Source: Escherichia coli
GTDB lineage: Bacteria > Pseudomonadota > Gammaproteobacteria > Enterobacterales > Enterobacteriaceae
Strand: one strand, 5' to 3'
Assembly: GCF_003018255.1 (NCBI RefSeq)
Contig: NZ_CP027440.1
Length of the DNA stretch: 64,000 nucleotides
In this document: in pieces, positions 24,808 through 26,772 of the stretch
Numbering within the stretch: position 1 is the stretch's first letter
How the letters are laid out: the number at the start of each line of letters is the position of its first letter
The notes under the pieces: model-generated
Seen by the model: only the letters and a program-made list of their open reading frames with translations
The model's database searches: none
Told to the model about the DNA's origin: nothing
Program-made: the position numbers and the translations under genes

Positions 24808-26772
24808 TCAGGCGGCGGTGTTCGCCATACGTTGTTCGCGGTTTATCGCCTGCAAGGCGGAGACATCAACAATCAGTGCCACGCTGCCGTCGCCAAGAAT
24901 GGTCGCAGCAGAAATGCCGGGGACTTTGCGATAGTTACTTTCAAGGTTTTTAACCACAACCTGGTGTTGACCAATTAATTGATCCACCAGCAAGGCGTAG
25001 CGGCGACCGCCACTTTGTAAGATCACCACAATTCCCTGGGTAGCTTCGGTTTTCGCGCCCGCGACGTTGAACACTTTCCACAGTTCGACGATGGGCAGAT
25101 ATTCACCCCGCACTTCCAGCACCCGCTCGCCGCCAGCCAGTGGATGCAGATCGGCTTCACGGGGTTGCAGTGATTCCATGACAGCATTCAGCGGCAGAAT
25201 GAAAACTTCATCCGCAACGCGTACGGACATGCCGTCGAGGATGGCCAGCGTCAGCGGCAGTAAAATGCGGATCGTCGTGCCAGTACCCTGCTTCGACTGG
25301 ATTTCGACATGACCGCCCATCTCCTGGATATTACGTTTAACGACGTCCATGCCGACGCCGCGCCCGGAGACGTCGGTGACCTGCTCCGCCGTGGAGAAGC
25401 CAGGGGCAAATATCAGCATCGCGACTTCGTCGTCGCTCATGTTTTCGCTGACGGTCAGACCTTGCGAGGCCGCTTTTGCCAGAATTCGCTCACGGTTTAG
25501 CCCCGCACCATCGTCGGTCACTTCAATGCAAATGTTGCCGCCCTGATGTTCGGCAGACAGAATTAAATTTCCGACGCTGTTTTTACCTGCGGCGAGCCGT
25601 TTTTCTGGCAGTTCAATACCGTGATCGAGGCTATTGCGTACCAGGTGGGTCAGCGGGTCGATAATGCGTTCTATCAGGCTCTTGTCGAGTTCAGTGGAAC
25701 TGCCCACCAGCGTCAGTTCTACCTGCTTGCCGAGTTTTCCCGCAAGATCACGCACCAGCCGGGGATAGCGACTAAAGACATACTCCATCGGCATCATGCG
25801 AATCGACATCACTGATTCCTGCAAATCACGGGCGTTACGTTGTAACTGCCCCATGCTGGTAATCAAATCACCATGATTAACCGGGTCCAGTTCACTAGAA
25901 CGCTGGGCAAGCATTGACTGGGTGATGACCAGCTCGCCGACGAGGTTAATTAATTGATCAACCTTTTCTACCGCTACACGGATGCTGGTGGATTCACTGC
26001 TGCGCGTCGTTTTTTCCCGCTCCACGCGGCCGGTTGGCGCTTGTTCGGCTGCCAGTTTAAGCACTGGTGGGGGGGATATTTTGGGCGAGACTTCTACTGT
26101 TTCAAAGGTAATCTGATCGGCTTCAATCACAAAACAGAGTACCGCTGTGATGTCATCTTCGGCGATGTCGCCCGGTAATATTGCCGAGAGAGAATCCGCC
26201 CCTTTCACCACATCAGTTAACGTTGTCAGATGCCCCAGCTCTTCTTCCAGCAGGTCGACTTCCCCGGCCTTCAGGCGCGAAAGGATAATTCGTCGCGGCG
26301 ACTGATCGCGGCTCTGCTCATCTTGCGGTTCACTTTTGGCAACCACACTTAATCGGGTCACTGCAGATGGCGTTTCGCCTTTCGCTTCTAATGCCAGTTG
26401 ACGCAAGGCCTGGCAGATATAATCGAAGCTGGCGGCATCCGGCTCTTGCGACTGTTTATAAGCGTCGAGCTGTTCTTGCATGATGTCCTTCGTTTCCAAA
26501 AACAGATTGATAATGTCGGTGTTGAGTTGCATCTCACCTCGTCTGGCTTCGTCGAGCAGGTTTTCCATCAGATGCGTGGTTTCCTGCAAAACGCTGAAGC
26601 CAAAGGTTCCTGCCCCTCCTTTGATCGAGTGGGCAGCCCGAAAGATGGCATTCAATTGTTCGGCATCTGGCGCTTCCGGCTGCAAAACCAGCAGATGCTG
26701 CTCCATGTCAGCCAACAGTTCGTCCGCTTCATCAAAAAATGTCTGATAAAAATCGCTTATATCCATGCTCAC
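24808..26772 (-). CDS. cheA: Chemotaxis histidine kinase CheA (long form; GTG start)
   Basis: ORF 24808-26826; annotated start is the GTG at 26770-26772 ([20 protein letters not shown]), 654 aa; P1 domain [12 protein letters not shown] with the phospho-accepting His. Confidence 0.96.

What the first reader, a model, noticed from the sequence alone, without database searches (positions are those of the whole stretch)
26479..26772. cheA tandem translation starts (CheA-L and CheA-S) are both present
The annotated CheA start is a GTG at 26770-26772 (VSMDIS...), not the upstream ATG the ORF track uses. An in-frame ATG at 26479-26481 corresponds to Met98, the known start of the short isoform CheA-S, which lacks the phospho-accepting His48 and binds CheZ. 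The sequence supports both starts; this matters for correct annotation.
Basis: partly seen in the sequence, partly recalled or inferred. Interest (0 to 1): 0.25.

Follow-up and report, generated by a model that had tools for sequence, protein, structure and literature searches.

The report
Known two-start cheA gene, confirmed
This is the ordinary Escherichia coli cheA gene, which carries both of its long-known translation starts (full-length CheA-L and the shorter CheA-S) in exactly the form found in the laboratory strain K-12, so the finding is correct but not new.

Summary
cheA lies on the minus strand at 26772..24808 and encodes 654 aa. Codon 1 is the GTG at 26772-26770, His48 is at 26631-26629, and codon 98 is the ATG at 26481-26479. 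RefSeq annotates a genome identical over 26300-26950 from this same GTG. The K-12 MG1655 record carries two cheA CDSs, of 654 and 557 aa, whose starts are 97 codons apart. Both start regions in the window are base-for-base identical to K-12 and nearly invariant in about 5,370 complete E. coli genomes. Papers held here state that CheA-S starts at ATG-98, is abolished by M98L, lacks the phosphorylation site and recruits CheZ.

One detail is wrong. No in-frame ATG lies upstream of the GTG; the ORF opens at TTG 26826.

Three comparative points go beyond the finding:
- Met98 is ATG in 67/67 sampled Enterobacterales cheA genes and Leu in 43/43 Burkholderiaceae/Salinisphaera genes.
- The 10 codons before Met98 are the least synonymously variable and most predicted-accessible stretch of the N-terminal region.
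- The AAGGA Shine-Dalgarno-like motif there is essentially E. coli-specific.

Verdict: already known, low interest.

The parts
24808..26772 (-). cheA coding sequence for the long isoform CheA-L (654 aa plus stop)
   Evidence: Translation and codon count. Same limits in the RefSeq annotation of a genome identical over 26300-26950. Pfam finds Hpt 8-100, CheY-binding 161-223, H-kinase_dim 261-324, HATPase_c 372-508 and CheW 514-640. There are 35 nt and 4 aa differences from K-12.
26770..26772 (-). start(L): the GTG initiation codon of CheA-L
   Evidence: It is the annotated start in RefSeq and K-12. GTG-AGY-ATG is conserved in most sampled Enterobacterales, and the Burkholderiaceae ATG aligns with this codon.
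26777..26783 (-). Shine-Dalgarno sequence GAGGTGA for start(L); it overlaps the motB stop codon TGA (26779-26777)
   Evidence: Best anti-SD duplex is CGAGGUG at -7.2 kcal/mol, ending 5 nt before the GTG. The median is -7.1 kcal/mol across 67 Enterobacterales. The sequence is conserved as GAGGTGA.
26629..26631 (-). His48 codon (CAC), the phospho-accepting histidine; present only in CheA-L
   Evidence: Codon count. It lies within the Pfam Hpt match 8-100 and is the same residue in K-12.
26479..26481 (-). start(S): ATG codon 98, the initiation codon of CheA-S
   Evidence: It corresponds to the start of the second cheA CDS in MG1655. It is ATG in 67/67 sampled Enterobacterales and Leu in 43/43 of the other sampled cheA genes. 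Literature: PMC7696710.
24808..26481 (-). Coding sequence of the short isoform CheA-S (557 aa plus stop), nested in frame in cheA
   Evidence: 654 - 97 = 557 aa. This matches the 1674-nt second CDS of b1888 in NC_000913.3.
26486..26490 (-). Shine-Dalgarno-like AAGGA, 4 nt (CATC) upstream of ATG-98
   Evidence: Duplex GAAGGAC at -5.4 kcal/mol. Among the sampled species it is present only in the window and the sampled E. coli genome (L052), with AAGGAT in one Enterobacter sp. (L009); all others have AAAGAT/AAAGAC.
26482..26511 (-). Codons 88-97: a translation-initiation region for start(S) that is constrained at synonymous sites, A/U-rich and predicted to be unstructured
   Evidence: Normalised synonymous entropy is 0.41, against a mean of 0.74 (sd 0.12). 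This is the global minimum of the region analysed (permutation P<5e-5). Predicted P(unpaired, -15..+10) is 3.2e-3, the 95th percentile in the window mRNA. On average it is the most accessible site among codons 8-149 in 65 Enterobacterales.
26395..26406 (-). Codons 123-126, including Leu123 and Leu126, the residues reported to contact CheZ in CheA-S
   Evidence: Both residues are present. Their role is reported in PMC7750401, citing Cantwell 2003 and Hao 2009.
26530..26540 (-). Decoy: GAGGTGA followed by in-frame ATG codon 81. It looks like a start but is not known to be one.
   Evidence: SD -7.2 kcal/mol. Predicted accessibility is about 570-fold lower than at Met98. Median accessibility rank is 0.30 across Enterobacterales. 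Met81 is only 85% conserved.
17841..18485 (-). cheZ, the phosphatase partner recruited by CheA-S; Trp97 and Phe98 of its apical loop are present
   Evidence: ORF translation. Pfam CheZ E=6e-77. CheZ-F98S cannot bind CheA-S (PMC7696710).
26777..27703 (-). motB, whose stop lies 4 nt before start(L)

Best explanation
The window carries a standard E. coli cheA gene that makes two proteins from one reading frame on one mRNA.

Ribosomes initiating at the GTG (26772-26770) produce CheA-L, the 654-aa autokinase with the phospho-accepting His48. This start is served by a strong, conserved GAGGTGA Shine-Dalgarno sequence that overlaps the motB stop, so translational coupling to motB is plausible.

Ribosomes initiating independently at the internal ATG of codon 98 (26481-26479) produce CheA-S, 557 aa. 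CheA-S lacks almost all of the P1/Hpt domain. It therefore cannot be phosphorylated itself, but it keeps P2-P5. Its exposed N-terminal remnant (helix E, Leu123/Leu126) binds the apical loop of CheZ (Trp97/Phe98) and so concentrates the phosphatase at the receptor array.

Shown here: the codons, the frames, identity to K-12, the annotation, conservation, synonymous constraint and predicted accessibility. Taken from the literature: that ATG-98 is used, that M98L abolishes CheA-S, and that CheA-S binds CheZ. Inferred: start(S) is selected mainly because it sits in a conserved, A/U-rich, unstructured stretch, with the AAGGA motif as an E. coli-specific addition.
For: - Coordinates and frame.
- RefSeq starts cheA at the GTG.
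- MG1655 annotates both the 654-aa and the 557-aa CDS, with starts 97 codons apart.
- The window is identical to K-12 over -58..+12 of start(L) and -40..+12 of start(S), and His48, Met98, Leu123 and Leu126 are all present.
- The 66-nt start(S) region is identical in 5365 of 5378 complete E. coli genomes that have cheA, and the start(L) region in 5324 of 5378. Over the whole 651-nt stretch, most genomes are only 95-99% identical.
- Met98 is ATG in 67/67 Enterobacterales and Leu in 43/43 Burkholderiaceae/Salinisphaera.
- Synonymous variability reaches its global minimum at codons 88-97.
- Predicted accessibility peaks at codon 98 across 65 Enterobacterales.
- No sigma-70-like promoter was found inside 26300-27000.
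- Hpt covers residues 8-100, and cheZ is intact.
- Literature: PMC7696710, PMC7750401, PMC3676780, PMC8563088, PMC1447658.
Against: - Nothing here measures protein from this strain.
- The Shine-Dalgarno-like motif at start(S) is only moderate: -5.4 kcal/mol, which 14% of in-frame background positions equal or better. It is weaker than the motif before Met81.
- Conservation of Met98 could partly reflect a structural role in the P1 helix, since the other sampled clade has the similar residue Leu.
- Accessibility values are in-silico and ignore ribosomes already translating from start(L).
- The sequence sample is biased.
- The primary papers (Smith & Parkinson 1980; Kofoid & Parkinson 1991; Sanatinia 1995; McNamara & Wolfe 1997) were not available to read, so their content is cited second-hand.
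Confidence: 0.94

Rival explanations
1. CheA-L starts at the ATG of codon 3 (26766-26764), either instead of or as well as the GTG, giving a protein two residues shorter.
For: ATG is a stronger initiator than GTG and is in frame 6 nt downstream. In Photorhabdus and Xenorhabdus the codon aligned with the E. coli GTG is GTA, so those species must use the ATG equivalent to codon 3. Predicted accessibility is similar at the two codons.
Against: GAGG lies 7 nt from the GTG, which is near the optimum, but 13 nt from the ATG. GTG-AGY-ATG is conserved in most Enterobacterales, and the Burkholderiaceae start ATG aligns with codon 1, not codon 3. Both the curated K-12 annotation and the RefSeq annotation use the GTG.
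Confidence: 0.08
2. Met98 is just an internal hydrophobic residue of the P1 helix bundle, and no short isoform is made from it in this strain.
For: The equivalent residue is Leu in Burkholderiaceae, a conservative replacement. The SD-like motif is modest. Most Enterobacterales have no SD at all at this site.
Against: The initiation region is base-identical to K-12, where ATG-98 is the documented CheA-S start and M98L removes CheA-S. The synonymous sites of the 10 preceding codons are the most constrained in the region, which a purely protein-level role does not explain. Accessibility peaks exactly there.
Confidence: 0.03
3. The short CheA arises from an internal promoter or from proteolytic clipping of CheA-L, not from internal translation initiation.
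For: None found here. It is a generic alternative for any doublet of protein bands.
Against: No sigma-70-like promoter was found in 26300-27000 (this is a weak test). The literature describes CheA-S as a translation product of an in-frame start, eliminated by changing codon 98 (PMC7696710; PMC1447658).
Confidence: 0.02

Closest known systems
E. coli K-12 cheA (b1888), tandem translation starts start(L)/start(S) giving CheA-L and CheA-S (Smith & Parkinson 1980; Kofoid & Parkinson 1991, as cited in PMC7696710)
   Same: Same gene and operon position (motA-motB-cheA-cheW). Same GTG and ATG-98. Identical nucleotides around both starts. Same 654/557-aa products. Same His48, Leu123 and Leu126.
   Different: Only 35 scattered nucleotide differences and 4 amino-acid differences (S156D, T234P, N259S, K484E), none near either start.
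cheA of other Enterobacterales (co-expression of long and short CheA is reported for members of the Enterobacteriaceae by McNamara & Wolfe 1997, whose title is cited in PMC3676780)
   Same: Met98 is invariant. The 30 nt upstream are conserved, A/U-rich and predicted to be open. GAGGTGA-N4-GTG AGC ATG is conserved at start(L) in most genera.
   Different: Other genera have AAA GAT ATT before ATG-98, whereas E. coli has AAG GAC ATC. They therefore lack the AAGGA motif: median SD energy is -3.3 kcal/mol against -5.4 in E. coli.
Other bacterial genes with an in-frame internal start that yields a shorter isoform: infB (IF2 alpha/beta), Salmonella ssaQ, cyanobacterial ccmM (listed in PMC11005335; ssaQ in PMC3195561)
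   Same: One ORF gives two N-terminal proteoforms with distinct roles, the short one lacking an N-terminal domain.
   Different: These are unrelated proteins and functions. The resemblance is in mechanism only, not in family membership.

Membership tests
E. coli-type cheA with tandem translation starts (CheA-L / CheA-S) | A single ORF encoding a P1(Hpt)-P2-P3-P4-P5 CheA kinase in the motAB-cheAW operon | tested here: met
   Pfam finds Hpt, CheY-binding, H-kinase_dim, HATPase_c and CheW in that order. motB lies upstream and cheW downstream.
E. coli-type cheA with tandem translation starts (CheA-L / CheA-S) | start(L): an initiation codon with a Shine-Dalgarno sequence just after the motB stop, upstream of His48 | tested here: met
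   GTG at 26772-26770. GAGGTGA at 26783-26777, -7.2 kcal/mol. It is the annotated start.
E. coli-type cheA with tandem translation starts (CheA-L / CheA-S) | start(S): an in-frame ATG at codon 98, downstream of His48 and at the end of P1 | tested here: met
   ATG at 26481-26479 is codon 98, and His48 is at 26631-26629. Hpt covers residues 8-100.
E. coli-type cheA with tandem translation starts (CheA-L / CheA-S) | The same initiation-region sequence as the strain in which start(S) was demonstrated | tested here: met
   Positions -40..+12 around ATG-98 and -58..+12 around the GTG are identical to MG1655. The MG1655 record annotates both CDSs.
E. coli-type cheA with tandem translation starts (CheA-L / CheA-S) | CheZ-docking determinants: Leu123/Leu126 in CheA and Trp97/Phe98 in a co-encoded CheZ | tested here: met
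   (CheA residues). (cheZ at 18485-17841, containing ...QRWDDWFAD...). The roles of these residues come from PMC7750401 and PMC7696710.
E. coli-type cheA with tandem translation starts (CheA-L / CheA-S) | Both polypeptides are actually produced in the cell | not testable with these tools
   This needs an immunoblot, N-terminal proteomics or initiation-site ribosome profiling. The ribosome-profiling supplements held here contain no cheA entry.

The most novel reading that the evidence does not exclude
Across Enterobacterales, start(S) may be specified by an order-wide conserved, A/U-rich, structure-free element (consensus ATCAACCTGTTTTTGGAAACNAAAGATATT-ATG) rather than by a Shine-Dalgarno sequence. 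This element shows up as the strongest synonymous constraint in the N-terminal part of cheA. E. coli is then the outlier: three synonymous changes (AAA>AAG, GAT>GAC, ATT>ATC) created an AAGGA motif that could raise its CheA-S:CheA-L ratio. On this reading, Met98 together with this element is an Enterobacterales-specific innovation, absent from Burkholderiaceae cheA, which has Leu98 despite keeping Leu123/Leu126.
Probability: 0.35. Interest if true: 0.25.

Novelty: already known. Interest (0 to 1): 0.08.

Why it matters
For annotation, cheA should start at the GTG, not at the longest-ORF TTG or at the first ATG. The nested 557-aa CheA-S product deserves its own CDS, as in the MG1655 record; automatic annotation of the genome identical over 26300-26950 lists only the long form. 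Biologically, nothing new follows for E. coli, because the two isoforms and the CheA-S/CheZ interaction have been studied since 1980. The one modestly useful by-product is comparative. The synonymous-site and accessibility signature upstream of Met98 gives a sequence-only way to recognise a functional internal start across Enterobacterales. It also suggests that the E. coli Shine-Dalgarno-like motif is a lineage-specific addition.

Tried and rejected
1. Using Shine-Dalgarno strength alone to single out Met98. This was rejected. Met81 has the stronger motif (GAGGTGA, -7.2 kcal/mol), and 14% of in-frame positions in Enterobacterales cheA equal or better the E. coli start(S) value.

2. No such ATG exists in frame.

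3. Reading the primary papers (PMC207748, PMC176941, PMC178899, PMC151485, PMC2737973). None is held, so the experimental facts are cited from later open-access papers.

4. Looking for cheA in the supplements of ribosome-profiling or proteoform studies (10.1101/520783, PMC11005335). Nothing was found.

5. An internal sigma-70 promoter or terminator in 26300-27000. None was found.

6. An Rfam family overlapping the start regions. None was found. The nearest hit is C0465 in the cheW-tar gap.

Full report
**1. What is in the sequence**

On the minus strand the region reads ...CCGA GGTGA CAGC GTG AGC ATG GAT ATA AGC GAT TTT TAT CAG....
- The motB ORF (27703..26777) ends with TGA at 26779-26777.
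- Four bases later the GTG at 26772-26770 opens a frame that runs to a TGA ending at 24808.
- Counting from that GTG gives 654 codons, with His48 = CAC at 26631-26629 and codon 98 = ATG at 26481-26479. These are exactly the coordinates in the finding.

The mechanical ORF extends 18 codons further upstream, to TTG 26826. That extension ([18 protein letters not shown]) contains no Met. The ATG at 26800-26798 belongs to the motB frame. The only nearby in-frame ATG is codon 3, which lies downstream of the GTG.

**2. Identity and annotation**

The 651 nt spanning the motB-cheA junction match 5,378 of 5,426 complete E. coli genomes. Three genomes match at 100%, and the features under the match are annotated as cheA and motB.
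- In one genome identical over 26300-26950, RefSeq starts cheA at the base equivalent to window 26772 and ends it at 24808.
- In the curated K-12 MG1655 record, cheA (b1888) carries two CDSs with a common end: 1973360..1975324 (654 aa) and 1973360..1975033 (557 aa). Their starts are 291 nt, or 97 codons, apart. These are CheA-L and CheA-S.
- The window's cheA differs from K-12 at 35 nucleotides and 4 residues (S156D, T234P, N259S, K484E).
- It is identical to K-12 from -58 to +12 of start(L) and from -40 to +12 of start(S). His48, Met98, Leu123 and Leu126 are all present.
- A 66-nt probe over start(S) is identical in 5,365 of 5,378 genomes, and one over start(L) in 5,324 of 5,378. Most genomes are only 95-99% identical over the wider region.

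**3. What the literature says**

The original papers are not in the held library, so these points come from later open-access papers.
[quoted passage not shown] It is not essential for chemotaxis, it is eliminated by M98L, and it is what localises CheZ to the receptor array. CheZ-F98S cannot bind it.
- PMC7750401 and PMC8563088: CheA-S lacks the first 97 residues, and Leu123/Leu126 contact CheZ.
- PMC3676780: both E. coli and S. typhimurium make the two forms, CheA-S lacks the phosphorylation site, and the CheA-S/CheZ complex has enhanced phosphatase activity.
- PMC1447658 summarises the same points.

In the window, Pfam places the Hpt domain at residues 8-100, so CheA-S lacks it. An intact cheZ at 18485-17841 encodes Trp97 and Phe98.

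**4. Do the two starts look like starts?**

Start(L):
- It has GAGGTGA overlapping the motB stop (-7.2 kcal/mol against the 16S tail), with GAGG 7 nt before the GTG.
- This arrangement, GAGGTGA-N4-GTG AGY ATG, is conserved in most sampled Enterobacterales. The start ATG of Burkholderiaceae cheA aligns with E. coli codon 1, not codon 3.
- Photorhabdus and Xenorhabdus have GTA at that codon and must use the ATG equivalent to codon 3. A minor contribution of ATG-3 in E. coli therefore cannot be excluded.

Start(S):
- It has AAGGA, then 4 nt, then ATG (-5.4 kcal/mol).
- That is not distinctive on its own. Met81 is preceded by the same GAGGTGA heptamer as start(L), and 14% of in-frame positions in Enterobacterales cheA score as well as start(S).
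- What distinguishes Met98 is predicted mRNA openness. P(unpaired, -15..+10) is 3.2e-3, the 95th percentile of the first 260 codons and the highest of any in-frame ATG. At Met81 it is 5.7e-6.

**5. Comparative test**

One pattern scan of species-representative genomes used the N-terminal motif [11 protein letters not shown], which is independent of codon 98. It returned 120 cheA loci from Enterobacterales and from Burkholderiaceae/Salinisphaera. The proteins align without gaps from residue 8 to about residue 130.
- Codon 98 is ATG in all 67 Enterobacterales sequences, including four divergent second copies. It is Leu (CTN/TTG) in all 43 others.
- Within Enterobacterales, normalised synonymous entropy falls to its global minimum over codons 88-97: 0.41 against a mean of 0.74, sd 0.12, permutation P<5e-5. 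The other clade shows a weaker dip (0.34 against 0.49, P=0.03), with its minimum elsewhere.
- The conserved sequence is ATCAACCTGTTTTTGGAAACNAAAGATATT ATG CAG.
- Averaged over 65 Enterobacterales sequences, the codon-98 site is the single most accessible position among codons 8-149. Mean log10 P is -3.33 against -5.87 overall, and the median rank is 0.90. Met81 ranks 0.30.
- The AAGGA motif is not conserved. Only the window, the sampled E. coli genome (L052) and one Enterobacter sp. (AAGGAT) have it. All others read AAAGAT or AAAGAC, with a median SD energy of -3.3 kcal/mol against a background median of -2.5.

**6. Mechanism**

Shown by the sequence and annotation: two in-frame initiation codons lie 97 codons apart on one ORF, with His48 between them, and both are identical in context to K-12.

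Taken from the literature: both are used, the short product cannot be phosphorylated, and it docks CheZ at the receptor array.

Inferred here:
- Start(L) is driven by a canonical Shine-Dalgarno sequence and may be translationally coupled to motB.
- Start(S) is selected because the ATG sits in a conserved, A/U-rich, unstructured stretch.
- The AAGGA motif is an E. coli-specific reinforcement.

No internal sigma-70-like promoter was detected, which is consistent with, though not proof of, tandem translation from a single mRNA.

**7. Verdict**

The feature is a textbook property of E. coli cheA, already annotated in the reference genome. Novelty: already known. Interest: low. The comparative signature upstream of Met98 and the lineage-specific SD-like motif are minor additions. 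They may already be in the 1990s literature that could not be read here.

Noticed in passing
window 26530-26540 (-): The in-frame ATG at codon 81 is preceded by GAGGTGA, the same heptamer as the start(L) Shine-Dalgarno sequence. On motif strength alone it looks a better internal start than Met98. However, predicted accessibility is about 570-fold lower, and Met81 is only 85% conserved in Enterobacterales.
   Followed up: partly
window 26482-26511 (-); loci L003-L121: The 30 nt before Met98 are almost invariant at synonymous sites across genera as distant as Yersinia, Pantoea, Erwinia and Citrobacter (ATCAACCTGTTTTTGGAAACNAAAGATATT). E. coli is the outlier (..AAT...ACG AAG GAC ATC) and thereby gains an AAGGA motif.
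   Followed up: yes
L014 (Enterobacter sp. BIGb0383), L016 (Yersinia artesiana), L044 (Pluralibacter gergoviae), L073 (Rahnella bruchi): These genomes carry a second, divergent cheA copy on another contig. It also keeps Met98 and has a stronger SD-like GGAGAGTA (L016, L044) or GGAGA (L073) about 8-11 nt upstream. It starts at an ATG aligned with E. coli codon 3, with no GTG.
   Followed up: no
L004, L012, L040, L091, L093, L103, L108, L117 (Photorhabdus/Xenorhabdus): The codon aligned with the E. coli start GTG is GTA, so these cheA genes must start at the ATG equivalent to E. coli codon 3. The AAGGTGA motif there lies about 10 nt upstream of that ATG.
   Followed up: no
window 24187-24264 (+): Rfam match to C0465 RNA (103 bits) in the cheW-tar intergenic gap, on the strand opposite to the chemotaxis operon.
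   Followed up: no
window 10634-10941 (-) and 42482-42781 (-): Full-length MicL sRNA match (371 bits) and a cluster of three tRNA genes. Neither is related to the finding.
   Followed up: no
E. coli genome search with window 26300-26950: 48 of 5,426 complete E. coli genomes have no match to the motB-cheA junction, presumably because of deletions in this flagellar region. In addition, two matching places are on records labelled as plasmids.
   Followed up: no
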